Positions 9,061 through 31,132 of a DNA stretch of 64,000 bases are shown piece after piece. How positions within the stretch are numbered: the first letter of the stretch is position 1; each line of letters opens with the position of its first letter. The notes under the pieces are model-generated. The model ran no database searches. It was given only the letters and a program-made list of their open reading frames with translations, and was not told the origin of the DNA. This DNA comes from an uncultured virus (IMG/VR IMGVR_UViG_3300029309_000007) (lineage: Duplodnaviria; Heunggongvirae; Uroviricota; Caudoviricetes), in IMG/VR virus record IMGVR_UViG_3300029309_000007. One strand, given 5' to 3'. The translations under genes and the position numbers were made by a program.

Positions 9061-9321
9061 ATGCAATTTTTAGCAGAAAAGAAAAAACCAGTAGAATTTA
9101 GGATAGTGGACGACGAGGAATTACCTCCCATTATCTTTACACAGAACGAAAATGACGAAGTAAAGGTTGTGATTAACACATATCACAAAATTTGGATTTG
9201 TCTGAACCGAAGAACAATTTTGGGTGCTTTAGATGCTTTAGGGGAAAAGATTGATACTATCTTAACTTCTCATCTATCCGACCAAAGAATGTTTGAAAAG
9301 CAGGATAGGGAGATGATTTGA
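9061..9321 (+). CDS. hypothetical protein
   Basis: AGGAGA RBS before ATG 9061. Confidence 0.65.
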   Translation: MQFLAEKKKPVEFRIVDDEELPPIIFTQNENDEVKVVINTYHKIWICLNRRTILGALDALGEKIDTILTSHLSDQRMFEKQDREMI

Positions 9322-9404
9322 ATGTTTAAGGGACTATTTAAATTTATTGCAATCATTAGCATTTTTGGCCCATTATTTTTTCTCATTCATGGTGGTGATG
9401 ATGA

Positions 9405-9563
9405 ATGGTGATAACAAAATGCTTTTGTGGCGTTTATGGACAAATGACAAATTGTGATTCTTGTGGAAAACCAATGTGCCGTAAGTGTGCAAAGCATGAA
9501 ATTGTACAAAACGAACTCTACATCAAACATAATGTTTGTTTGAAGAATAAACAAAAGAGGTGA
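9405..9563 (+). CDS. 52-aa B-box-like zinc-finger protein (not in ORF track)
   Basis: MVITKCFCGVYGQMTNCDSCGKPMCRKCAKHEIVQNELYIKHNVCLKNKQKR; GGTGA RBS. Confidence 0.6.
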   Translation: MVITKCFCGVYGQMTNCDSCGKPMCRKCAKHEIVQNELYIKHNVCLKNKQKR

Positions 9564-9655
9564 ATACCTATGAATAAAACAGAAACAGAAACAAAGAAGA
9601 ACGATGATGCCCTTTATATGGGTGAAGAACATGGAGAGAACAAGGAGGAAGCAGA

Positions 9656-9859
9656 ATGATAAAAATGCGGATTTTGAATGAGACAGGACACACCGAATTG
9701 ACTTTGGAATCATCCGAAGTGATTGAGCAAATTGAAACCCACCCTACTCATTGGGTTTTCATTGACGGTGAATTGATGGCAAGAGAATCAATCCAAGAGA
9801 TTGATTGGAATGTCGTTCAGTCTGTTGATTTAACGCCAGCAATCGTGGGCGGTCAATAA
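9656..9859 (+). CDS. ubiquitin-like (ThiS/MoaD/SAMP beta-grasp) protein with C-terminal GG-Q
   Basis: 67 aa; MIKMRI first strand, VFIDGEL, VDLTPAIVGG-Q; strong GGAGG RBS. Confidence 0.85.
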   Translation: MIKMRILNETGHTELTLESSEVIEQIETHPTHWVFIDGELMARESIQEIDWNVVQSVDLTPAIVGGQ

Positions 9860-9860
9860 A

Positions 9861-9902
9861 TCAGCATTTGCTGACTTCTACGGGGGAGGGGAACCTCCCC
9901 CT
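9861..9902 (+). terminator. two stem-loops after the Ubl gene
   Basis: TCAGCATTTGCTGA and GGGGGAGG-GGAA-CCTCCCC. Confidence 0.45.
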
Positions 9903-9919
9903 ATTTGGGGGGAGAAATA

Positions 9920-10294
9920 ATGGATTTAAAAAATTTTATATCTAAAGATGCTTTGCATCTAATGATTTCTTTAAATGGTTGGAAGCACCCCAGAACAAAA
10001 GAACTCGGAAATGTTTCGGTGTTTAAGCCGGACTTCTATGATACTGGGCATGTTATTGCTAAAACAGATAAAGCAATAATTCAAGCAAAGGGCTATACTG
10101 TCGTTCACTACAAAGAAAAAACATATTGTGATGTTGACGCTTTGTTAAAAGAACATGGTGTTGATGCAATACTTGATTTTAACAATTGGAATTTTGAAAT
10201 AGAAAAGGAATGGGTTATTTTTAAAGGTGGAGAATGGCAAACATCTTTCACAACTTTGGATAAACTTCCAAAGAAAACAAAATACCGTTGTTGA
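9920..10294 (+). CDS. hypothetical protein
   Basis: GGAGA RBS before ATG 9920. Confidence 0.65.
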   Translation: MDLKNFISKDALHLMISLNGWKHPRTKELGNVSVFKPDFYDTGHVIAKTDKAIIQAKGYTVVHYKEKTYCDVDALLKEHGVDAILDFNNWNFEIEKEWVIFKGGEWQTSFTTLDKLPKKTKYRC

Positions 10295-10610
10295 TGCTAT
10301 GTTATCGTATGATGAAATGAAATTGGTTTGTATTTCATATATGGATGATTTTTCCAGAATCAATCAAAATAGATTGATGAGAACCATTGATTTATGCGAT
10401 ACAAACGGCGATGAAAGAGAAAAGAAGTTTCTTTTGAACAGCACACTTAACATTGTTCTTTGGGACTTTGAAGATGCAGTTCAAATGGGATTTCACAAAT
10501 TTCTCAAAACTAAATTTGTAGAAAGACATGAAGCAATTCAATACCATGAGGCCAACAAACAAGATTGTTCGGGTTGTAAAATTTGTAGAATACAGGCGAT
10601 GGTCTTATGA
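10227..10610 (+). CDS. hypothetical protein with C-terminal CxxCxxC (start uncertain)
   Basis: Track ORF ending in ..DCSGCKIC.. Confidence 0.55.
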   Translation: MENGKHLSQLWINFQRKQNTVVDAMLSYDEMKLVCISYMDDFSRINQNRLMRTIDLCDTNGDEREKKFLLNSTLNIVLWDFEDAVQMGFHKFLKTKFVERHEAIQYHEANKQDCSGCKICRIQAMVL

Positions 10611-10774
10611 AAGAAAAAGACCCTGAATATCAAAAAAGCCATTGGTCTTACAAAAATAGGGTAGCAACCCGTTGTAGGATATGTGGAGGGCAATTAATTT
10701 TGCCAGAAGAATGTAGGGCAGAAATGCACCAAGAATGTAAAAAAAATATCAAAGATAACACATATATGATGTGA
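10607..10774 (+). CDS. 55-aa zinc-finger microprotein (not in ORF track)
   Basis: ..TRCRICGGQLILPEECRAEMHQECKK..; ATGA overlap. Confidence 0.6.
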   Translation: MKEKDPEYQKSHWSYKNRVATRCRICGGQLILPEECRAEMHQECKKNIKDNTYMM

Positions 10775-10778
10775 TAGA

Positions 10779-11975
10779 ATGAATGAAAGAAAATTAGAAT
10801 TTAGAATTAGAAAACCAAACGATTCAGGAGAATATTGGACTGTTCCTGCAAGTATTCAGTCCATTGGCGATGATACTTCAATGTTGTTTAAAATTAGTAG
10901 AAACAGATATACTGCTAGTCCAAATCGACAATCAAAAGACCCCGTTCTCGGTGGTATAAATTATATGTTTCGTGATTTACTACAAATCAGGAGAAGAAGA
11001 AAATATACTTATTCGACTCAACCTGCGGAATATAAGGGCATTTTAAAAATTAAAGACTTGCCTATTATGATATCTAAAACAGACATTAGATATGAGATAA
11101 ATGGAAAAGCACAGTCATTAAATACTATTTGTAGTGTCTTAGCGAGAGTCTTATTCAAAGCAACAACGACGGATGACACGAATGCTTTGATGAAGACTTT
11201 ATATTCTCATTTAGATATTCCTGAACAAGTTAGATATGCTATTGAAAACAAAGTACCATATCACTTTTTCCATGAATTTGAAAAACATGAGGTTCGCCTC
11301 AATATTCAACAGATTGATTCTGATGAATATGCCATTGAAGTTAGCGATGGTGTTTGGGGAACAATGGCTACAAAAGATGTAGTAGTTTTTGTCAATACTT
11401 ATCTACACGGTCATAAAAGAGGAAATTGGCATAGAGTTTCACCACAAAGCCTTTATGAGAGAACCGTTGGCAAAAAACCATCCGAATCTGATATTAAGGT
11501 CATGCGGGAATTCCTAAAACAGAACAGAACCTCTGCCATTGTAGAGCAAAGAGCAAGAGATTTAGTACAAGAAATGGAAATCCAATACAAAGAAAGAATT
11601 GAAGTGCGATGGGATAATAATAATATGCCAGAAAAAATCTTTGTTCGTGGAAATCAATACGATTGGTTGCTTACTTCAAGAGGCTATAAACAAAACTTTC
11701 AAATGGTTTCAACCTTTATCTGGCAACCAAGATGTGTTGAGATGAAAAAGGGCGATACTGAAGAAGACTTAATACCTCGATGGCAAGGGCCAATTTGTAT
11801 TGATAATATGAATAGTGATTCTTCTCTTGGTGACCAATTTGCCGCAAGAGTTCTAGCCTTCATAAATGATAATATGACTATAAAAATAGTGAACACAATT
11901 AGAAGCAGAATAACAACAGAACCAAATGAATGTAGAGTGGATAAAAATGATGTGTCAAGAATGTGGAATGAATGA
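10779..11975 (+). CDS. 398-aa protein with a GPICID Cys motif (E2-like or DUF4132-C-terminal-like; unresolved)
   Basis: IFVRG..WQGPICID..SLGDQFAARVLAFIND. No HPN motif. Confidence 0.7.
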   Translation: MNERKLEFRIRKPNDSGEYWTVPASIQSIGDDTSMLFKISRNRYTASPNRQSKDPVLGGINYMFRDLLQIRRRRKYTYSTQPAEYKGILKIKDLPIMISKTDIRYEINGKAQSLNTICSVLARVLFKATTTDDTNALMKTLYSHLDIPEQVRYAIENKVPYHFFHEFEKHEVRLNIQQIDSDEYAIEVSDGVWGTMATKDVVVFVNTYLHGHKRGNWHRVSPQSLYERTVGKKPSESDIKVMREFLKQNRTSAIVEQRARDLVQEMEIQYKERIEVRWDNNNMPEKIFVRGNQYDWLLTSRGYKQNFQMVSTFIWQPRCVEMKKGDTEEDLIPRWQGPICIDNMNSDSSLGDQFAARVLAFINDNMTIKIVNTIRSRITTEPNECRVDKNDVSRMWNE

Positions 11976-12798
11976 ATTTAAATTTAACGAGACTCTTGGA
12001 GAAACTGAATGTCTTTCTTGTGGACTTATTGTTCATAATGAGCCATTTGAAGAGCGTGTTAGTATCGTGAACAACGGTGTTTTAAAGCATAGTAGAGACA
12101 AGAAAAACCAATTAGGTTCAATTATTACAGGAAAGGGGTCGTATAAATATACGAAAAGAGGAAACAATACTGCTATCCCAACCCATATTACAAGAGCATT
12201 ATCTCTCTGTAAAATGGTGTTAGCGTCTGTTGTAGAAAATAGTCCCTTGACTGATAGAGTAGAAGAAGTGTATTTAGAATTGCAGAAGAAAAATATCTTC
12301 GGAAATCAAACTCTTGAAAATAGAGCAACTGCGGTTGTGCATTATGTTTTACGAGAAAACAAAACTCCTTTGCCGATTAAGGAAATCACCAAGGAGTTTA
12401 ACTGCAACCAAAAATCAGTCAAGAAACTAGTGAGGAAGATTGGCGGGTTCTATAAAAATAGAACCCTATATGCTCAAGCAGACCCACATTTTTTATTGTC
12501 GCAAACTGTTGTTAAAATTACAGATGACCCGTTCTTTTTGAGTCTTTGTGAAGAAACGATGAAAGCCCTTGAGCCAATCTTAGAAAGGGCAGACTATAAT
12601 AAAACACCGAGTTATTACGCTTGCGTTGCTTGGATTACCAAGAACATAAATCTGTATTCTTCAATTACTGTATCTAAGATTTCAAAGGCTACTGGAATCC
12701 ATAGAGCAACCATTTTTAAGAATACAAAAAATATCATCGCCTTTCTGGGATATACCGATGTAAAAGAAATGAAAGGAAAGAAAATTAAGGAGGAATAA
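11947..12798 (+). CDS. tfb: transcription initiation factor TFIIB/TFB homolog
   Basis: N-terminal Zn ribbon CQECG..GETECLSCGLIV, followed by two cyclin-fold-like repeats (AVVHYVLRE..PIKEI; ITVSKISKATGIHRATI). Confidence 0.85.
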   Translation: MMCQECGMNEFKFNETLGETECLSCGLIVHNEPFEERVSIVNNGVLKHSRDKKNQLGSIITGKGSYKYTKRGNNTAIPTHITRALSLCKMVLASVVENSPLTDRVEEVYLELQKKNIFGNQTLENRATAVVHYVLRENKTPLPIKEITKEFNCNQKSVKKLVRKIGGFYKNRTLYAQADPHFLLSQTVVKITDDPFFLSLCEETMKALEPILERADYNKTPSYYACVAWITKNINLYSSITVSKISKATGIHRATIFKNTKNIIAFLGYTDVKEMKGKKIKEE

Positions 12799-12800
12799 AA

Positions 12801-13217
12801 ATGAACGAATCGGAAATAATTAACGCTATTGAAGAAGGAGTCTTTGAGACTCTTAAAAACTTGAGAACAGATTGTCCTTTTTGTAAAGAACAAACAGAAA
12901 TTTATTTGAGGAAACAAAACAATACATTTTTAGCACTTACTGACCCATTGGACGACCTACAATTTATGCTCAATTTTAATTGGGACTGTCCTTTTTGTGA
13001 GAAAAATGTAAAACCTAAAGATGTTTTGCCTCTTTCTCCAGAAGAAGCAGAAGTTAAGAAGTATCAAGATATGGGCCACACTGTTGTTTGGCACATGGAA
13101 TATGACGCATTTCTCAATTATACGCTTGAGAAGAAGGTTGGCGTAGAGGATTGTGAGGATAAAAACTGTGAGTTTTGCACCAAAGAAATTGATTGGAAGA
13201 AAATTAAGGAGGGATAA
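12801..13217 (+). CDS. multi-Cys zinc-binding protein
   Basis: CPFC twice and CxxxxCxxC. Confidence 0.65.
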   Translation: MNESEIINAIEEGVFETLKNLRTDCPFCKEQTEIYLRKQNNTFLALTDPLDDLQFMLNFNWDCPFCEKNVKPKDVLPLSPEEAEVKKYQDMGHTVVWHMEYDAFLNYTLEKKVGVEDCEDKNCEFCTKEIDWKKIKEG

Positions 13218-13219
13218 AT

Positions 13220-13567
13220 ATGAAAACAATAGAAATCAAAGTGCCATGTGAAATACATGGATTAGAAATATACCATAGTGAAGGCGGTAAAGATTACTGC
13301 GAAGAATGTATGGTAGAAAGAATTGAAAACCAACTTGAAGGATATTCATTAAACACTATCGCTAGATGGATTCATAAGAACGCTAATTTAGATGCTGATT
13401 GGTGGACTATTTTCAAATATGCCCAGTCTTATCACATTGAAGAACTTGACGGGGTTATTTTGAATCCTGAATTTTATTCAAAGTTCTTGAAAAGCAAGCA
13501 AAAAAGATTCATTAGATTAAATAAGGGAGAATATCTTGCAGAAGAAATTGATAAGGAGGAATATTAA
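13220..13567 (+). CDS. zinc-finger protein
   Basis: CEIH...YCEEC. Its stop overlaps the E1 start. Confidence 0.65.
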   Translation: MKTIEIKVPCEIHGLEIYHSEGGKDYCEECMVERIENQLEGYSLNTIARWIHKNANLDADWWTIFKYAQSYHIEELDGVILNPEFYSKFLKSKQKRFIRLNKGEYLAEEIDKEEY

Positions 13568-14124
13568 TGAGAAAAGTATTAGTAATTGGAGCAGGTGGAA
13601 TTGGAAGTTTTCTAATTCCTACATTAGATAAAGTTGGTCTTTACCGAATTAGTGTAGCAGACCCCGATACAGTAGAAACAAAGAATCTACCGTATCAAAA
13701 TTTTAAGAAAGGCCATGTTGGTCAGAATAAAGCACAAGTTATGATGGATTCATATGAATCTGTGGCAACTTTCAGCAAGTTCCCAGTTTTGACAGAAAAG
13801 CAAATGTCAGGATATGACCTTGTAGTTTGTTGTGTTGATAATTTGAGCGTGAGAAGAACCCTTTACAATTCAAATGTAAAGTGGTTAGATTTGCGAGCGC
13901 AGGGAAGAAATGCGGCTTTGGTTAGTTTTTTGGCTGATGCAAAAATGTATGATACTTTGCTTGCAGGAAAAGACGGCTCATTTAGTTGTCAAGGAGATTC
14001 ATGGGATGGTTCAAATAAGGGAGTCCATTTCATGCAAGTCGCTATCGCTGGCTTGGGCGCACAATGGGCGCAACGATTCTTTAACCAAGAAGAAGTAAAA
14101 GAATATATGGTACTAAATGCATAA
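13567..14124 (+). CDS. ThiF/MoeB/E1-family ubiquitin-like activating enzyme
   Basis: VLVIGAGGIGS, DPDTVETKNLPYQ, VGQNKA, CCVDNLSVR; candidate catalytic Cys in FSCQG. Confidence 0.92.
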   Translation: MRKVLVIGAGGIGSFLIPTLDKVGLYRISVADPDTVETKNLPYQNFKKGHVGQNKAQVMMDSYESVATFSKFPVLTEKQMSGYDLVVCCVDNLSVRRTLYNSNVKWLDLRAQGRNAALVSFLADAKMYDTLLAGKDGSFSCQGDSWDGSNKGVHFMQVAIAGLGAQWAQRFFNQEEVKEYMVLNA

Positions 14125-14136
14125 GGAGAGATAATT

Positions 14137-14724
14137 ATGGCAGGAAAAAAGAAAAGAGAAATATACAAATGGACTGATGAACAAGTGAAGTTTTTGTTAG
14201 ACAAGCCCCCCAACTATACTTGGGTAGATTTTGCAAAAATAATGAACAAAACCTTTAATGTGAATAGAAATACGGGTTCTGTTTATGCTAAATACAAAAA
14301 AGAGAAAATGCTCAGAAATCTGGCTAGTGAAAAAGATGAAGCGCAAGAGGCTATAAAAGAACCAATTTCTGAGCCGGATGAGCCGAGATTTTCTCGGACT
14401 CGTAAGCGATGGACTCCACAGGAGGAATTAGAGGTTTTGGTGAACTTTTATTCGCTTTCTGTTGATGAAGCGAGAGAGCGATGGCAAAGGCCGTATAGAG
14501 CAATCGCAGGGCGATTAGAGTCTATTTGCGATATGACAGAACCTCATCACGAATCGCTACTTATGGAGGCCGCTAAGATAGTCAAACAAAAGGAGGCTAT
14601 GAAGCGTAAGCCAACCCGAAAGGAGCGAAAATTGGCTAAGAGAGCCGCAAAAATAGCCAAAAAGCAAGACCGCTTGGCGAAGAAAATCCAACACTTAGAG
14701 AGAGGAATGAAGAATGACAGATGA
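14137..14724 (+). CDS. Myb/SANT-like HTH repeat protein with a basic tail
   Basis: YKWTDEQVKFL and KRWTPQEELEVL repeats. Confidence 0.65.
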   Translation: MAGKKKREIYKWTDEQVKFLLDKPPNYTWVDFAKIMNKTFNVNRNTGSVYAKYKKEKMLRNLASEKDEAQEAIKEPISEPDEPRFSRTRKRWTPQEELEVLVNFYSLSVDEARERWQRPYRAIAGRLESICDMTEPHHESLLMEAAKIVKQKEAMKRKPTRKERKLAKRAAKIAKKQDRLAKKIQHLERGMKNDR

Positions 14725-15262
14725 AATAATAAATCAGAGATTTGAGGCTTGTCGCCATGTTGAAGATGTTTGGACTCAATGTTTGTTAAACAGTTCAAAT
14801 ACTGTTAAAAACAGAGATTTTCGCCATGTTGAAGATTCAGAACACATGGTTCCTTTGCACGATGCTATTTGGTATGCTTCTACGGAAATTTTACCAAACC
14901 TTGAAGTGCAAGCAATCATTGATGCAAAAAACGACATCTATGTTTCAACAGGGACAGCAGGATATGTTGATTATTTGACGATTGACCCGAATCTTTTGAC
15001 GGGAATGAAATTGCCAATTAAATGTTGGATTCATACTCATCCATTTGGCTCGGCATATTTCAGTGGAACTGATTGGCGCACGATTAAAATTTGGAAAGAG
15101 AATTTGACTTGTGCTTATGTTCTTGGTGGAAAAATGTCCACTGATGCACATTATGGTTTTTGGAAAAACAATCGTCCAAATGAACTTGAAATTTATGTTG
15201 ATGGCGAACATGAAAAAACACAAAAATTGATACTAGTACCATTAAAGGAGGAAGAAGAATGA
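14714..15262 (+). CDS. JAB/MPN+ (JAMM) metalloprotease
   Basis: E(VQAII)...WIHTHPFGSAYFSGTD matches E-xn-HxH-x7-S-x2-D. Confidence 0.9.
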   Translation: MTDEIINQRFEACRHVEDVWTQCLLNSSNTVKNRDFRHVEDSEHMVPLHDAIWYASTEILPNLEVQAIIDAKNDIYVSTGTAGYVDYLTIDPNLLTGMKLPIKCWIHTHPFGSAYFSGTDWRTIKIWKENLTCAYVLGGKMSTDAHYGFWKNNRPNELEIYVDGEHEKTQKLILVPLKEEEE

Positions 15263-15666
15263 AGAAAGTAATATGGCAAGAAATGACTTACGAAGAACAG
15301 CAAGAGATTTTGGAAGATTTGAAAGAGAGTTGGCCTTCGTTCAAAAATGACCATCCTCGTTCAAGGAGTCCCTATCTTTGGCACAACATTAGTTTGAGAG
15401 ATTTTGTGGCTTATATGAATATGCCTCTCTATTCTTCTTGGCTTCAATACGAAAATGAATATAATCGTTTGCGTCGTGAAGAACGACAAAAAGATATGGA
15501 GGGGTTTTTAGAGCATTATTCTAAAACGCAACCTTTAGCGGCTAAAATGATTGAAGATATTTATGCTTCTCGTCGAGACTATGAAACTGTCAAGAAGATG
15601 TCTAAAATGGTTTTAGATTTTTTCCCGCCGAAGAACTGGCCTATTAGGAGAGGTGAACAAGAATGA
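15259..15666 (+). CDS. hypothetical protein
   Basis: Coupled ORF with RBS. Confidence 0.65.
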   Translation: MKKVIWQEMTYEEQQEILEDLKESWPSFKNDHPRSRSPYLWHNISLRDFVAYMNMPLYSSWLQYENEYNRLRREERQKDMEGFLEHYSKTQPLAAKMIEDIYASRRDYETVKKMSKMVLDFFPPKNWPIRRGEQE

Positions 15667-15983
15667 AAAGAATAATTAAAACAGGACAAACATACAAAAC
15701 AATTAAAAGTGGACTTAGTACGGCATTTAAATATCCAGACCGTCCAATGAGAGAATATGAATCTATTTCGCTCTTAGAAAGACAAAAGCGACATAGAGCG
15801 AACCATCCAAATGATAAAGGTGAACCAAGAAAAAATAAAGGAATCACTTATAGTAAAAGAACTCAAAGGGATAAAGACCTTGAAGAGTTCCATAAGAATA
15901 ACATTTGGACTTACATTAATCGTGATTTGGATAAAGGATGGGTCAATATTGAACATTATCATAAAAAGGAGGAAGAGGAATGA
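15663..15983 (+). CDS. hypothetical basic protein
   Basis: Coupled ORF with GAGGTGA RBS. Confidence 0.6.
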   Translation: MKRIIKTGQTYKTIKSGLSTAFKYPDRPMREYESISLLERQKRHRANHPNDKGEPRKNKGITYSKRTQRDKDLEEFHKNNIWTYINRDLDKGWVNIEHYHKKEEEE

Positions 15984-16204
15984 GTTGGAAGGCAATTGGA
16001 GAATGGGTAGTTATTGAGAAAACAGTTTCATCTGGAATGGGTAAAATCGTACAGATGTCTGATAATCAGGGTAAAGTTATTTCTTGTGCAATAAAATCTG
16101 ATATTGTTGGAAAAACTGTTATCTTTGACAAGTTTAGTCGCATTAACTCGGAGAGCAAGTATGTTCTCGTTAAGTATCAAGATGTTATGGCGGTGAAAGA
16201 ATGA
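15980..16204 (+). CDS. groES: GroES-like co-chaperonin
   Basis: KAIGEWVVIE..SSGMG..GKVIS..VGKTVIFDKF..KYVLVKYQDVMAV; lies upstream of groEL. Confidence 0.75.
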   Translation: MSWKAIGEWVVIEKTVSSGMGKIVQMSDNQGKVISCAIKSDIVGKTVIFDKFSRINSESKYVLVKYQDVMAVKE

Positions 16205-28100: not shown

Positions 28101-29771
28101 ATGATAATTAGCAGATGCATTGACAATAAAACAATATACACATCATGGAGAGAAAATGGCGAAAAGAAGGTAGCGGTTGAATTATTCGCACCATACTTCT
28201 ATTTGCCAGAAGATGCCCAAGAATTTGAAGAATACAAAATCGGTCGGGCCTCTTCTCGGCCTTTTCGTTATGAACATGGAAATTGGGTAAATCTTCAAGA
28301 AGAAAAACTTAAGCGTGTTTATGTTGAGCAATCAACAGATATTTACAATGCCAAGAAAATGTGGCCTAAAACATACGAAGCAGATGTTCCGTATCATTTC
28401 CGATATGCCGTGGATAAAATTGATGAAATGCCAGAATATAAACTGCGAAAGTGGTATTGGGATATGGAATGGCAACAAGGCGGCGAATATCACGATTGCA
28501 TTACAACAATTGTTGTTTATGATAACTACGATGAAAAGTATTACCAATGGTCATGGTTTCCCGAAGATGAATGGGTTCCGAATAAGCAACTTCAAACAAC
28601 TGATAATTTTCAGACAGGTTTTTGCTTTTCAGAAAAAAAGATGATTGAAAGTTTTATTTCTTTTATGACAGAAAAAGACCCTGATATGTTGATTTCTTGG
28701 TTTGGAAATTTTGCTGATGTGCCAATGTTGCTTAAGCGATGTTGTGCATTGGGAATCAACCCCTTGCAGTTATCGCCCATTGGCCGTGTAGAGGGCGTTA
28801 AAAGGACTTCTAAAGGCTTTGAATACACTAAAGGCGACGAAGGGTTCTCTTCAATCAAACAGCCCATAGGGGGCCGCATAACCCTTAACTTAGACCATGC
28901 TTTTGAAAGACAATGGAATGATTCGCAAAGAGGAACTTTGCCTTCTTTGGCTCTTGATTATGTTTCTTCCCTTTTGTTTGGCGAAGGAAAATCCAAAGAA
29001 ACAAAGTTTGCAGACCCTAACGAATTCTATCGTAGGGCTTGGTTGGAGGACACACTAAACTATTTAGATTATGCACTTCAAGATGTTAAACTTCTTGTTA
29101 AAATTGATGAAACGAACTTTTGTAGTGAAGCAATTATTTCATTACAGCGTTTGCTAAAAGCCCCATTCGATGCTTGCTTTTTCGCTTCGCACATGGGTTC
29201 AATTTATTTTATGCGAAATGCTTGGTGGAAAGCCCCAACAGGAAAGAAAGTAGAAAAGCGTGAAGAATATGACGGTGCTATGATTTATGACCCATTAAGC
29301 GAACAAACTCAGGGCTTACATCTTAATGTAGCGGCATTTGACTTTGCAGGGCTATATCCAAGTATGATGATTTCAAGAAACATTTCATGGGAAACAAAGT
29401 CAGAAGAACCGACAGAATTTGCCGTGAATATCTTAACGCCGAGAGACTTCAGCGATGTTAAACATGAGAAGATGTTGTATTACAAAACAGATAAACTTGG
29501 ACTTCTACCAAAGGCTGTTCTTGAATTAAAAGAGTTGCGAAACGAATACAAGGCTCTCTTAAAAGAAGCGAGAAAGAATGCGGATGAAGAAGAGGTTATC
29601 AAATGGAATAATAATCAAATGGCTGTAAAGCGTTTGATGGCTTCATTTTATGGCATTGTTGCCTTTCAAGGATTTGGATGGGCAGATGTTTCTTTAGCCG
29701 CAAGCATTACTGCAAGTGCAAGAGAAGCAATTAGATTAGCGGCATTTAAGGCTAAGGAGATGAATATATGA
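28101..29771 (+). CDS. polB: family B DNA polymerase, N-terminal part (3'-5' exonuclease, motifs A and B)
   Basis: WDME, FADVPML, YALQDV, FDFAGLYPSMMISRNIS, KRLMASFYG. Confidence 0.93.
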   Translation: MIISRCIDNKTIYTSWRENGEKKVAVELFAPYFYLPEDAQEFEEYKIGRASSRPFRYEHGNWVNLQEEKLKRVYVEQSTDIYNAKKMWPKTYEADVPYHFRYAVDKIDEMPEYKLRKWYWDMEWQQGGEYHDCITTIVVYDNYDEKYYQWSWFPEDEWVPNKQLQTTDNFQTGFCFSEKKMIESFISFMTEKDPDMLISWFGNFADVPMLLKRCCALGINPLQLSPIGRVEGVKRTSKGFEYTKGDEGFSSIKQPIGGRITLNLDHAFERQWNDSQRGTLPSLALDYVSSLLFGEGKSKETKFADPNEFYRRAWLEDTLNYLDYALQDVKLLVKIDETNFCSEAIISLQRLLKAPFDACFFASHMGSIYFMRNAWWKAPTGKKVEKREEYDGAMIYDPLSEQTQGLHLNVAAFDFAGLYPSMMISRNISWETKSEEPTEFAVNILTPRDFSDVKHEKMLYYKTDKLGLLPKAVLELKELRNEYKALLKEARKNADEEEVIKWNNNQMAVKRLMASFYGIVAFQGFGWADVSLAASITASAREAIRLAAFKAKEMNI

Positions 29772-29968
29772 ATAAGTTCTTTGCAGAAAAGATTTTAATT
29801 ATATTAGAAAACATGGATGGTCAGTTCACAGCCAACCAAGTTAGAGATAGAGTAATTAACCAATTTGGACACATGCACTATATAGAAAACACTACATCAG
29901 TTGGTGCGTTCTTAGGAAGGTATTGTGTCAATTTGGGAAATAGAATGTGGACAAAAAAGGAGGAATAA
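29768..29968 (+). CDS. small wHTH-like protein between the PolB halves
   Basis: FTANQVRDRV..TTSVGAFL..W. Confidence 0.55.
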   Translation: MNKFFAEKILIILENMDGQFTANQVRDRVINQFGHMHYIENTTSVGAFLGRYCVNLGNRMWTKKEE

Positions 29969-29970
29969 TT

Positions 29971-30174
29971 ATGGATAAATCAGAAAAATATTATTTGGAA
30001 ACGATGAAAGAAATCAAGGAGATTAAGAAATTTATCAAAGAGGAGATAGATTCTCTTTATGCAGATTTACAAAATCTGCAAGAAACTCGTCGCTTGATTA
30101 CAGAATTGCAGGAAGAAGTAGCAAAACTCGCAGGTGAACCTGTCGGTATGTTGTTTTCAAAATACCGAGCGTGA
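29971..30174 (+). CDS. small coiled-coil protein between the PolB halves
   Basis: GGAGG RBS; heptad-like sequence. Confidence 0.55.
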   Translation: MDKSEKYYLETMKEIKEIKKFIKEEIDSLYADLQNLQETRRLITELQEEVAKLAGEPVGMLFSKYRA

Positions 30175-30178
30175 AACT

Positions 30179-31132
30179 ATGAAAGTGGTTTATGGACATA
30201 CAGATTCAATCTATGTTCAAATTGATGATGTAGATAAAGCAAAGGAAGCAATTAAGGTGATTGAAGATGAAGTCAGAAAAAGTTTCCCGAATGTTCTCGG
30301 ACTTGAACAGCATCCCGTCGTTTTGGAATTTGAAAAATTCTATTCGGCGTTGGGTGTCGGAACGACGAAAAACAGAAACGCAGGACTGATTATTTGGGAT
30401 GATGGTATTTATCTTGATAAACCAAAATTCACAATGACAGGATTTACTGCAAAGCGGGTTAGTGAAACCAAGTTGGCGAAAGAAACGCAAACAGATGTCC
30501 TAAAGATGTGGGTCGAAAATAAAAGCGAAAAAGAGGTCATTAAGCACTTGCATACTATCTATACAAATGTGTTAAAAGGAAATGTAGAATTGAGTGCGAT
30601 TGCTAAAAAAAGCAGATTGAAGCAACAAAGATTCAAAGTGTTTTGTCCCAACTGTAAAAAACAATTTGATATGCGAGAAGAATTGCCACTTGATTCTCAC
30701 ATTAAGCGGGTGGAAAATGGCATACCAGAATTTTGCGATACTCACAAAAAATATTTTGTTGGGCAACAAGCAGAAAAATACGATAAGAAATTACGCAAGA
30801 AAGTAAAATATAATAAGCGTGTTTCTGTTGCTTCTGGTGTGGCCGGTATTATGTATGCTTTGCAGAACAAAGAAATGAAGTTTGAAGATTCTTATGTGTT
30901 TATTCGCACATCTGATAATTTAACTTTCAAACATCCATTGACAGATGAGGAAAAGCCAGCAGATTATGTCGCAGGTATAACCTTTGAGGATTTGGCTTCT
31001 TATACGCCCGACTATGAATACTACGCAGAACAAGTTAAGAAGAAGGCCGAACCCGTATTTAATGCGATGGGCTGGGACTTGACGGCCATTAAAAGCGGCA
31101 AAATACAGAAAACATTGGAGGAATGGTTTTGA
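30179..31132 (+). CDS. polB: family B DNA polymerase, C-terminal part (motif C, thumb)
   Basis: VVYGHTDSIYV, LEFEK, KNR, DYEYYAEQ, and PIP-box-like QKTLEEWF. Confidence 0.9.
   Translation: MKVVYGHTDSIYVQIDDVDKAKEAIKVIEDEVRKSFPNVLGLEQHPVVLEFEKFYSALGVGTTKNRNAGLIIWDDGIYLDKPKFTMTGFTAKRVSETKLAKETQTDVLKMWVENKSEKEVIKHLHTIYTNVLKGNVELSAIAKKSRLKQQRFKVFCPNCKKQFDMREELPLDSHIKRVENGIPEFCDTHKKYFVGQQAEKYDKKLRKKVKYNKRVSVASGVAGIMYALQNKEMKFEDSYVFIRTSDNLTFKHPLTDEEKPADYVAGITFEDLASYTPDYEYYAEQVKKKAEPVFNAMGWDLTAIKSGKIQKTLEEWF

What the first reader, a model, noticed from the sequence alone, without database searches (positions are those of the whole stretch)
9656..9859. Ubl is made as a masked precursor: one Gln caps the di-glycine
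Seen: the gene ends GGC GGT CAA TAA (G-G-Q-stop), has a strong GGAGG RBS and is followed by two hairpins. Established: E1 adenylation needs a free C-terminal Gly, and capped Ubls (e.g. BilA and some sulfur carriers) are matured by JAB peptidases. Inference: this functionally links the Ubl to the JAB gene 5 kb downstream and provides a timing switch or insulation from the host E1.
Basis: partly seen in the sequence, partly recalled or inferred. Interest (0 to 1): 0.75.

Follow-up and report, generated by a model that had tools for sequence, protein, structure and literature searches.

The report
Capped ubiquitin-like protein of a magrovirus
A marine archaeal virus makes a small ubiquitin-like tag with one extra amino acid after its reactive Gly-Gly end, a known kind of precursor that a nearby virus protease probably trims, but the cap looks like an inherited, dispensable leftover and not a special switch.

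Summary
Window 9656-9859 (+) encodes a 67-aa protein ending ...PAIVGG-Q-stop, with GGAGG 7 nt upstream and two hairpins downstream.

It has no Pfam match. Its model is a confident beta-grasp fold (pLDDT 91.4) whose best structural matches are ubiquitin, NEDD8, MoaD, BilA and SAMP.

The window is magrovirus-like. In 80 related viral loci the gene order is conserved: Ubl, a Cys protein with an E2-like C-terminal fold, a TFB-like gene, a minimal 185-aa E1, a JAMM/JAB peptidase, then GroEL.

Of 120 close homologues, 118 keep GG followed by 0 (35), 1 (13) or 2 (70) residues. Wider relatives include tandem poly-Ubl genes and Ubl-E1 fusions, all joined at GG. So GG is a processing site and Gln67 is a propeptide.

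JAB is found in 76 of 80 loci (the four misses are truncated), including 16 of 16 cap-less ones, and the cap was lost at least 2-3 times. A timing switch or insulation from a host E1 has no support.

JAB trimming of capped Ubls is known from BilA/BilC and Caldiarchaeum. This scan has reported the same magrovirus module before on other DNA.

The parts
9644..9648 (+). GGAGG Shine-Dalgarno-like site, 7 nt before the start codon
   Evidence: Read directly from the sequence. The same GGAGG motif sits in front of many genes of this block.
9656..9859 (+). Gene for the 67-aa ubiquitin-like protein in its precursor form (Ubl 1-66 plus Gln67)
   Evidence: ORF. 567 homologues. AF2 model with pLDDT 91.4 and beta-beta-alpha-beta-beta-(alpha)-beta topology. 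Structural matches are Ub, NEDD8, MoaD, BilA and SAMP.
9848..9856 (+). GGC GGT CAA: Gly65-Gly66 (predicted mature C-terminus) and the one-residue cap Gln67
   Evidence: G65 and G66 are invariant in alignment A1. The tail varies from 0 to 2 residues in relatives.
9861..9911 (+). Two hairpins after the stop codon; possible terminator or RNA-stability element
   Evidence: RNA fold with MFE -28.2 kcal/mol, z -4.1. The closest relative L001 has a similar GGGGGAGG...CCTCCCCC pair downstream.
10779..11975 (+). 398-aa protein whose C-terminal domain (residues ~250-391, nt ~11526-11951) has an E2/RWD-like fold with invariant Cys340 (W-x-G-P-I-C-I-D-N); candidate E2
13567..14124 (+). Minimal 185-aa E1-like adenylating enzyme (ThiF family)
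   Evidence: Pfam ThiF 2e-18, 66.8 bits against a cut-off of 28.1. PDB sequence hits: SAE2 9e-8, Cap2 8e-7, UBA3 1e-6, MoeB 8e-5. Invariant GxGGIGS, D32, D34, K55, D91, C141. Found in 78 of 80 loci; both misses are truncated.
14714..15262 (+). JAB/JAMM metallopeptidase (182 aa); predicted to trim the cap and remove the Ubl from targets
   Evidence: Invariant E64, H107, H109, S117 and D120, the full JAMM motif. Profile against PDB: AMSH-LP 4e-4, then AMSH, Sst2 and Rpn11. Prok-JAB is matched by 36 of 45 family members at E <= 0.01, but below Pfam's cut-off. Found in 76 of 80 loci; all 4 misses are truncated.
11926..12798 (+). TFIIB/TFB-like protein (Zn ribbon plus HTH) lying inside the module; context only
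   Evidence: Pfam Zn_Ribbon_TF 1.2e-4 and HTH_6 6.8e-6, both below cut-off. Conserved between the E2-like gene and the E1 in 80 of 80 loci.

Best explanation
The gene encodes the precursor of a virus-encoded ubiquitin-like modifier.

Proposed mechanism:
1. The 67-aa protein folds as a beta-grasp domain with a flexible tail ...AIVGG-Q.
2. Gln67 blocks the carboxylate of Gly66, so the protein cannot be adenylated as made.
3. A JAMM peptidase cuts after Gly66. The virus's own JAB at 14714-15262 is the most likely enzyme.
4. The minimal viral E1 (13567-14124) adenylates Gly66.
5. The Ubl probably moves as a thioester to an invariant cysteine, either E1 Cys141 or Cys340 of the E2-like domain of the 398-aa protein.
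6. It is then attached to targets that remain unknown. The same JAB would remove it from them.

The cap itself is best read as an inherited trait of a family whose members are made as precursors: tandem poly-Ubl genes in cellular relatives, and 0-2 extra residues in the viruses. It is dispensable and is not a dedicated timing device.

Shown here: the fold, GG conservation, tail variability, synteny and catalytic-residue conservation. Inferred: cleavage, activation, conjugation and which peptidase acts.

For: GG as the functional end: G65 and G66 are invariant in A1. 118 of 120 listed homologues have ...GG plus 0 (35), 1 (13) or 2 (70) residues. In 80 viral loci the tails are 0 aa in 16, 1 aa in 2 and 2 aa in 62.

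Wider family (129 representatives at E <= 1e-3): 103 reach the C-terminal motif, counted as GG 111 times and AG 7 times. Tails range from 0 to more than 300 residues, and in 13 proteins a GG is followed by another Ubl unit.

Fusions cut at GG: P0130 is Ubl-Ubl-E1, and its E1 part is 32% identical to the window's E1 (E 2e-21). P0160 looks like a Ubl-E1 fusion, read by eye from its printed sequence (not compared). The Ubl-[Cys domain] fusions P0129, P0171, P0150 and P0161 align to the C-terminal domain of the 398-aa protein (hhalign probability 55%, E 1.2e-4).

Cellular relatives: all 80 metagenome loci kept carry 2-3 tandem units in one ORF. The window's Ubl aligns to both units of one of them, GG to GG (31% and 24% identity, E 7e-15 and 1e-10).

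Partners: conserved gene order in 80 loci; a ThiF-family E1; a JAB with an invariant JAMM motif; an E2-like fold with invariant Cys.

Precedent (passages read): the single residue Ala98 after Gly97 blocks adenylation of BilA and is removed by the JAB enzyme BilC, which also cleaves conjugates (PMC10557695). CsRpn11 cuts CsUb-pre exactly after GG, and CsJAMM cuts SAMP precursors (PMC6043591). Iyer et al. 2006 predicted this dual role for JAB (PMC1779556).
Against: Nothing was tested at the bench, and no cleavage, adenylation or conjugate has been seen.

JAB presence does not track the cap (16 of 16 cap-less loci have it), so synteny alone does not show that JAB trims the cap. A host JAMM could do it.

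The E1 is unusual. It is only 185 aa, starts at the first Rossmann strand, and has an invariant Tyr43 where SAE2 has the Arg of N-L-x-R-Q. Its competence is therefore inferred.

Two-residue tails are not random: position +2 is Tyr in 45 of 70, and Leu, Val or Cys in 20 more. Some selection acts on the tail that I cannot explain.
Confidence: 0.6

Rival explanations
1. Sulfur carrier. The Ubl is a ThiS/MoaD-type carrier. JAB trims the precursor, the E1 adenylates it, and it is converted to a thiocarboxylate that donates sulfur to a cofactor, a thionucleoside or cysteine. No protein is tagged.
For: MoaD, ThiS and CysO are among the structural matches. Gene sets of Ubl, E1 and JAB linked to sulfur assimilation are described in Iyer et al. 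2006 (Table 1 passage). The E1 has no domain beyond the adenylation core. In cellular relatives the poly-Ubl gene lies beside a 2-thiouracil desulfurase-family gene in 49 of 80 loci. That JAMM enzymes trim capped sulfur carriers (QbsD/QbsE, Mec+/CysO) is recalled, not read here.
Against: No sulfurtransferase, rhodanese, cysteine desulfurase or acceptor enzyme (MoaE, ThiG, Ncs6-type) appeared in Pfam scans of 55 window ORFs. A conserved Cys protein with an E2/RWD-like fold lies in the module, and Ubl fusions to a related domain exist. Tandem poly-Ubl genes are the pattern of conjugated modifiers. The best JAB profile matches are isopeptidases: AMSH-LP, AMSH and Rpn11.
Confidence: 0.15
2. The cap is removed by a host JAMM peptidase or a carboxypeptidase, not by the viral JAB. 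The viral JAB is kept only to strip Ubl, viral or host, from targets.
For: JAB is retained in all 16 cap-less loci and in three independently cap-less clades, so it has a function other than cap removal. Cellular relatives are tandem precursors that need a GG-cutting peptidase of their own. Earlier scan notes e1-4951281 and e1-902131 report an E1/JAMM cassette in Marine Group II archaea (not tested here).
Against: In the two systems read here, the cognate JAB both matures the Ubl and cleaves conjugates, and CsRpn11 and CsJAMM each cut only their own precursor. The viral Ubl is only 24-31% identical to the cellular units, so cross-recognition is not assured.
Confidence: 0.15
3. One reading: the Gln cap is a regulatory device, a timing switch or insulation from the host E1, selected for that purpose.
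For: Tails are kept short (0-2 residues in 118 of 120) and position +2 is biased to Tyr, Leu, Val or Cys, so tails are not purely neutral. A capped Ubl cannot be adenylated, as the BilA structure shows.
Against: 20% of viral loci (16 of 80) have no cap, and the cap was lost at least 2-3 times on the E1 tree. Cap residues differ widely among close relatives, with 23 different tails in 71 distinct loci. The Ubl and JAB genes lie on the same strand within one 5.6-kb conserved gene block, so nothing in the layout suggests separate timing. No RNA data could be found.
Confidence: 0.08

Closest known systems
BilABCD (bacterial ISG15-like) systems: BilA Ubl, BilC JAB, BilD E1, BilB E2 (PMC10557695, passages read)
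   Different: Bil is a contiguous bacterial anti-phage operon. Here the genes belong to an archaeal virus and are spread over 5.6 kb among a TFB-like gene and others. The E1 is a bare 185-aa adenylation core. The E2-like domain is the C-terminal part of a 398-aa protein and is only weakly matched. The Ubl is a single 67-aa domain with no Pfam match.
Caldiarchaeum subterraneum ubiquitin operon: CsUb-pre cut by CsRpn11, and CsSAMP precursors cut by CsJAMM (PMC6043591, passages read)
   Same: An archaeal Ubl precursor is cut exactly after Gly-Gly by a free-standing JAMM that also cleaves conjugates. CsUb (5zew) and the CsRpn11-like chain 6fjv appear among the matches.
   Different: CsUb-pre has a nine-residue tail, a eukaryote-like E1 and E2, and a RING E3. 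No clear RING was found here: the 138-aa Zn-finger protein gave only sub-threshold RING-type hits. The viral proteins belong to different sequence families.
Archaeal SAMP / UbaA / HvJAMM1 system of Haloferax volcanii (PMC4443979 and PMC4895103, seen only in a search listing; details recalled)
   Different: Sampylation needs no E2 (recalled). Here an E2-like Cys domain is conserved in the module. UbaA is a full-length MoeB-type enzyme (recalled), whereas this E1 has 185 residues.
Eukaryotic ubiquitin, SUMO and NEDD8 precursors and polyubiquitin genes (textbook knowledge; mentioned)
   Same: The modifier is made with C-terminal extra residues, or as head-to-tail repeats or fusions. All are cut after GG before E1 activation. 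The family found here shows the same three layouts.
   Different: Eukaryotic precursors are mostly cut by cysteine-protease DUBs. Here the only candidate is a JAMM metallopeptidase.

Membership tests
Ubiquitin-like beta-grasp modifiers (Ubl) | Beta-grasp fold | tested here: met
Ubiquitin-like beta-grasp modifiers (Ubl) | Conserved C-terminal Gly-Gly on a flexible tail | tested here: met
   G65 and G66 are invariant in A1. 118 of 120 homologues keep GG. The last 7 residues have a mean pLDDT of 65.
Ubiquitin-like beta-grasp modifiers (Ubl) | Sequence membership in a curated Ubl family (ubiquitin, ThiS, MoaD, Urm1 and similar in Pfam) | tested here: not met
   No Pfam family at E <= 0.1 except a chance-level Inhibitor_I24 hit. 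The Ubl assignment therefore rests on fold, GG and context.
Ubiquitin-like beta-grasp modifiers (Ubl) | Covalent attachment to targets through the C-terminal Gly | not testable with these tools
JAB-matured Ubl precursors (BilA/BilC, CsUb/CsRpn11 type) | Variable residues after GG that are absent from the mature form | tested here: inconclusive
   Tails of 0-2 residues in close relatives, and whole domains or further Ubl units in distant ones, argue for removal. The mature form itself was not observed.
JAB-matured Ubl precursors (BilA/BilC, CsUb/CsRpn11 type) | A cognate JAMM peptidase encoded with the Ubl | tested here: met
   JAB lies in conserved synteny in 76 of 80 loci, and the 4 misses are truncated loci. 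E64, H107, H109, S117 and D120 are invariant.
   JAB is present in 16 of 16 cap-less loci. Cap-less clades arose at least 2-3 times and all keep JAB.
JAMM/MPN+ metallopeptidases | E ... HxH ... S ... D metal-binding and catalytic motif | tested here: met
   H-T-H-P-F-G-S-A-Y-F-S-G-T-D plus the upstream L-E-V-Q, all invariant in 45 sequences. The motif aligns with that of AMSH-LP (E 4e-4).
JAMM/MPN+ metallopeptidases | Reaches the curated Pfam threshold (Prok-JAB, PF14464) | tested here: not met
   19.6 bits against a cut-off of 25. 36 of 45 relatives match at E <= 0.01. Sequence-level membership is sub-threshold, and no structure was predicted for this protein.
E1 / ThiF-MoeB adenylating enzymes | Rossmann adenylation domain with a Gly-rich loop, reaching the Pfam threshold | tested here: met
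   PF00899 at 2e-18, 66.8 bits against a cut-off of 28.1. GxGGIGS, D32, K55 and D91 are invariant.
E1 / ThiF-MoeB adenylating enzymes | Arg of the N-L-x-R-Q motif (ATP contact; role recalled) | tested here: not met
   An invariant Tyr43 (N-L-P-Y-Q) aligns with the Arg of SAE2's N-L-N-R-Q. The E1 part of the fusion P0130 has His there.
E1 / ThiF-MoeB adenylating enzymes | Catalytic Cys for thioester or persulfide | tested here: inconclusive
   An invariant Cys141 lies in S-F/Y-S-C-Q. Its equivalence to the crossover-loop Cys was not tested structurally.
E2 / UBC-fold conjugating enzymes | UBC fold with an active-site Cys after strand 4 | tested here: inconclusive
ThiS/MoaD-type sulfur carriers | Linked sulfurtransferase and acceptor enzyme genes | tested here: not met
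   None among 55 window ORFs scanned against Pfam. Only the 64-kb window was examined, not the whole virus genome.

The most novel reading that the evidence does not exclude
Magroviruses, among the most abundant archaeal viruses of the surface ocean, carry a self-contained ubiquitin-like tagging cascade: a pro-Ubl, a stripped-down E1 with Tyr in place of the usual ATP-contacting Arg, an E2-like Cys domain, and a JAMM peptidase. They would have captured it from their hosts' polyubiquitin-style system and would use it to tag host or viral proteins during infection. On this reading the one-residue cap is a vestige of the host's tandem precursor. Its repeated loss with JAB retained would show that the viral JAB's main job is deconjugation, possibly also stripping the host's own Ubl marks.
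Probability: 0.35. Interest if true: 0.8.

Novelty: new variant of a known kind. Interest (0 to 1): 0.55.

Why it matters
Trimming of a capped ubiquitin-like protein by a JAMM peptidase is already established in bacteria, archaea and eukaryotes, so the cap by itself is ordinary. What stands out is where it occurs.

The setting is a Ubl, E1, E2-like and JAB set conserved across a large group of uncultured marine archaeal viruses. My searches found no paper that mentions it. 'magrovirus' plus 'ubiquitin' returned 0 papers. The main texts of PMC5434244 and PMC11706807 contain no 'ubiquitin', 'JAB' or 'ThiF'; 'MoeB' was also absent from the first and 'JAMM' from the second.

The family also shows all three precursor layouts known from eukaryotic ubiquitin: a short cap, tandem repeats, and fusion to another protein.

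The natural mix of capped and uncapped viral Ubls offers a ready-made experiment. It could separate the two roles of a JAMM enzyme, maturation and deconjugation, and help identify what an archaeal virus tags.

Tried and rejected
- Complex prediction for Ubl with JAB was not available, so no interface test was made.
- Near-identity DNA search of the phage collection found no match.
- The window's own assembly is not held. The nearest record, G001, is an 11.8-kb fragment without the Ubl.
- The genome-contig scan found only two loci, both in one MAG labelled Altibacter. These are probably mis-binned viral contigs.
- Sequence search of the single JAB protein against PDB gave only spurious WD40-repeat sums. 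The profile search replaced it.
- Foldseek on the whole 398-aa model found nothing at E <= 1e-3.
- The ESM Atlas look-up of its C-terminal part gave only unrelated AAA hits below 0.9.
- Single-protein scans of viral contigs with P0121 and P0130 found nothing. The divergent alignment A6 found one viral locus and was too divergent for the metagenome scan, so the closer alignment A7 was used.
- HMMs of the viral JAB, E1 and 398-aa protein found nothing within +/-10 kb of the cellular poly-Ubl genes. The whole records could not be searched.
- No RNA holder was listed for window 9300-15400, so expression timing is untested.
- The idea that the cap marks JAB-containing genomes was rejected.
- hhalign of the single fusion protein P0129 against A4 was uninformative (probability 2.4%). 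With five fusion proteins it rose to 55%, which is suggestive only.

Full report
**Observation.** Window 9656-9859 (+) is a 67-aa ORF ending ATC GTG GGC GGT CAA TAA, which reads I-V-G-G-Q-stop. GGAGG lies at 9644-9648, 7 nt before the ATG. The start is backed by the conserved N-terminus MIK[LM]R in homologues. The 68 nt after the gene fold into two hairpins with MFE -28.2 kcal/mol. Shuffles average -17.2 +/- 2.7, giving z -4.1, and 0 of 200 shuffles fold as well.

**What the window is.** Pfam scans show a UvrD helicase, an ATP-dependent DNA ligase, an RFC-like clamp loader, a family-B DNA polymerase in two ORFs, an ERCC4 nuclease, a PD-(D/E)XK nuclease and GroEL. On the other strand lie a tail tube protein, a major capsid protein and a prohead protease. 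This matches the magroviruses of Marine Group II archaea described by Philosof et al. 2017 (PMC5434244, passages read). Relatives of the Ubl sit on marine viral contigs of about 90-97 kb.

**What the protein is.** It has no Pfam family. With 33 homologues as an alignment, AlphaFold2 gives a confident model (mean pLDDT 91.4). The order is beta-beta-alpha-beta-beta-(alpha)-beta, and the last 7 residues have lower confidence (mean pLDDT 65).
- Foldseek's best PDB matches are all ubiquitin, NEDD8, MoaD, ISG15 or SUMO, with E 3.6e-3 to 2e-2 and probability 0.8-0.99.
- The scores are modest, as expected for 67 residues, but the list is almost uniformly beta-grasp modifiers.

**Partners.** In 80 related viral loci the gene order is conserved: Ubl, a 124-aa protein, a 398-aa protein, a TFB-like protein, E1, usually a 195-aa protein, JAB, then GroEL.
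- *E1 (13567-14124).* It matches Pfam ThiF at 2e-18, above the cut-off. By sequence it matches SAE2, Cap2, UBA3 and MoeB. It has only 185 residues. GxGGIGS, D32, D34, K55, D91 and C141 are invariant in 42 sequences. An invariant Tyr43 sits where SAE2 has the Arg of N-L-N-R-Q.
- *JAB (14714-15262).* It is sub-threshold in Pfam (19.6 bits against 25; 36 of 45 relatives match at E <= 0.01). E64, H107, H109, S117 and D120 are invariant in 45 sequences. Its profile matches AMSH-LP (4e-4), AMSH, Sst2 and Rpn11 over the JAMM motif.

**Is Gln67 a propeptide?** Three lines of comparative evidence say yes.
- *Close relatives.* Of the 120 listed homologues, 118 end in [AS][IV][IV]GG followed by nothing (35), one residue (13: Q 10, E 3) or two residues (70). 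The other two are a fragment and one R-G variant. In the 80 loci the counts are 16, 2 and 62, with 23 different tails among 71 distinct loci.
- *Wider family.* A profile search of 1.84 billion representatives found 129 proteins at E <= 1e-3. Of these, 103 reach the C-terminal motif (GG 111 instances, AG 7). Tails after the last motif are 0 aa (15), 1 (29), 2 (18), 3-12 (14), 13-60 (17) and over 100 aa (9). In 13 proteins the motif is followed by another Ubl unit.
- *Fusions.* P0130 is Ubl-Ubl-E1, and its E1 part is 32% identical to the window's E1 (E 2e-21). P0160 looks like a Ubl-E1 fusion; this is read by eye from the sequence printed and was not compared. P0129, P0171, P0150 and P0161 are Ubl fusions to a Cys domain that aligns with the C-terminal domain of the 398-aa protein (hhalign probability 55%, E 1.2e-4, suggestive only).
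- *Cellular relatives.* A metagenome scan with a closer alignment of the diverged branch found 330 relatives. All 80 loci kept encode two or three tandem Ubl units in one ORF, each ending in GG. These lie in a conserved cellular neighbourhood: aldolase, often a 2-thiouracil desulfurase-family gene, the poly-Ubl, RFC, a 512-aa protein and SdhA. RFC is adjacent in 69 of 80. The window's Ubl aligns to both units of one such protein, GG on GG (31% and 24% identity, E 7e-15 and 1e-10).

A family in which GG is followed by anything from nothing to another protein must be cut after GG, as ubiquitin is.

They do not.
- JAB was found in 76 of 80 loci. The four misses end 2.8-8.3 kb after the Ubl, before JAB's usual place. 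It was found in 16 of 16 cap-less loci.
- On a tree of 67 distinct E1 sequences, the cap-less state needs three changes, at least two of them forced by well-supported branches. Three cap-less clades result. One row, L038 (...GGGY), is ambiguous between a one- and a two-residue tail.
- So the cap is dispensable and has been lost repeatedly, while JAB is always kept. JAB must therefore do something else, most simply deconjugation. That is the dual role shown for BilC and CsRpn11 and predicted by Iyer et al. 2006.
- This is compatible with the viral JAB trimming Gln67, but synteny alone cannot prove it. A host JAMM is a live alternative.
- A timing switch or insulation from a host E1 has no support. 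The Ubl and JAB genes lie on the same strand within one 5.6-kb conserved gene block, and the cellular relatives are themselves capped precursors. No RNA data were available.
- One observation remains unexplained. Two-residue tails are not random: +1 is mostly N, Q, C, S or D, and +2 is Tyr in 45 of 70 and Leu, Val or Cys in 20 more.

**Comparison with known systems.** The mechanism matches BilA/BilC, where a single Ala after the reactive Gly blocks adenylation and the JAB removes it. It also matches Caldiarchaeum CsUb-pre/CsRpn11. The differences are:
- the host of the genes, an archaeal virus;
- the dispersed gene arrangement;
- the bare 185-aa E1 with Tyr in place of the motif Arg;
- an E2-like domain buried in a larger protein;
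- a Ubl family absent from Pfam.

The sulfur-carrier reading is not excluded. However, no sulfur-transfer or acceptor enzyme was found among 55 scanned ORFs, and the E2-like partner and poly-Ubl layout argue against it.

**Literature and earlier scan notes.**
- 'magrovirus' plus 'ubiquitin' returned 0 papers.
- 'archaeal virus' plus 'ubiquitin-like' plus 'JAB' returned one unrelated paper.
- 'Poseidoniales' plus 'ubiquitin-like' returned one paper whose title and abstract concern an AP endonuclease; I did not open it.
- The main texts of PMC5434244 and PMC11706807 contain no 'ubiquitin', 'JAB' or 'ThiF'; 'MoeB' was also absent from the first and 'JAMM' from the second. Their supplements were not read and could list such annotations.
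- This scan has reported the same magrovirus module on other genomes, as well as the tandem Ubl gene of Marine Group II archaea. Those are unchecked AI notes. I re-derived the module, the E2-like fold and the cellular tandem genes independently here. I did not test the taxon of the cellular contigs or the reported host E1/JAMM cassette.

**Verdict.** The precursor reading is well supported by comparison and fits a known mechanism. The link to the viral JAB is plausible but not specific. The switch and insulation ideas are unsupported. The cap itself is ordinary, and the virus-encoded Ubl system around it is the interesting part.

Noticed in passing
L084-L163 (for example L098:10001-10426): All 80 metagenome loci kept carry a polyubiquitin-style gene of 2-3 tandem Ubl units, each ending in GG. 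It sits in a conserved cellular neighbourhood (aldolase, 2-thiouracil desulfurase-family gene, poly-Ubl, RFC, 512-aa protein, SdhA). No E1 or JAB resembling the viral ones was found within +/-10 kb.
   Followed up: partly
P0130, P0160, P0129, P0171, P0150, P0161: These are natural fusions. P0130 is Ubl-Ubl-E1 (E1 part compared). P0160 looks like Ubl-E1 by eye only. The other four are Ubl(-Ubl) fused to a Cys domain resembling the C-terminus of the window's 398-aa protein. All are joined at GG.
   Followed up: partly
window 13567-14124 (codon 43, about 13693-13695): The 185-aa E1 has an invariant Tyr where SAE2 has the Arg of N-L-x-R-Q. It also starts directly at the first Rossmann strand, with no N-terminal helices or C-terminal domain.
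   Followed up: partly
window 1-36500, + strand genes: 16 of 59 predicted proteins end in -EE, -EEE or -EEEE. Their last codons (GAGGAGGAA or GGAGGAA, then the stop) contain the GGAGG ribosome-binding site of the next gene, often with an ATGA overlap.
   Followed up: partly
window 9854-9856 and the homologous tails in L001-L080 and P0001-P0120: Two-residue tails after GG are biased. Position +1 is N, Q, C, S or D. Position +2 is Tyr in 45 of 70 and Leu, Val or Cys in 20 more. This is unexplained.
   Followed up: no
window 15980-16204: A 74-aa ORF just upstream of GroEL has a weak Cpn10 (GroES) match (E 0.0046, below the cut-off). The 2017 magrovirus paper considered a co-chaperonin unlikely.
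   Followed up: no
window 28101-29771 and 30134-31132: The family-B DNA polymerase is encoded in two ORFs, an exonuclease/N-terminal part and a C-terminal part, separated by two small ORFs (29768-29968 and 29971-30174).
   Followed up: no
window 12801-13217: A 138-aa Cys-rich protein two genes upstream of the E1 gives several sub-threshold RING-type zinc-finger hits (Prok-RING_4 at 0.003, others 0.014-0.067). Relatives were detected in only a minority of the 80 loci.
   Followed up: no
window 9656-9859: The Ubl has a single Lys (K3, not conserved) and two Arg residues in 67 residues. A nearly Lys-free modifier would be poor at forming chains on itself. This is read from the sequence.
   Followed up: no
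L081, L082: The only genome contigs matches to the Ubl lie on two short contigs of one MAG labelled Altibacter, a bacterium. They are probably mis-binned magrovirus contigs.
   Followed up: no
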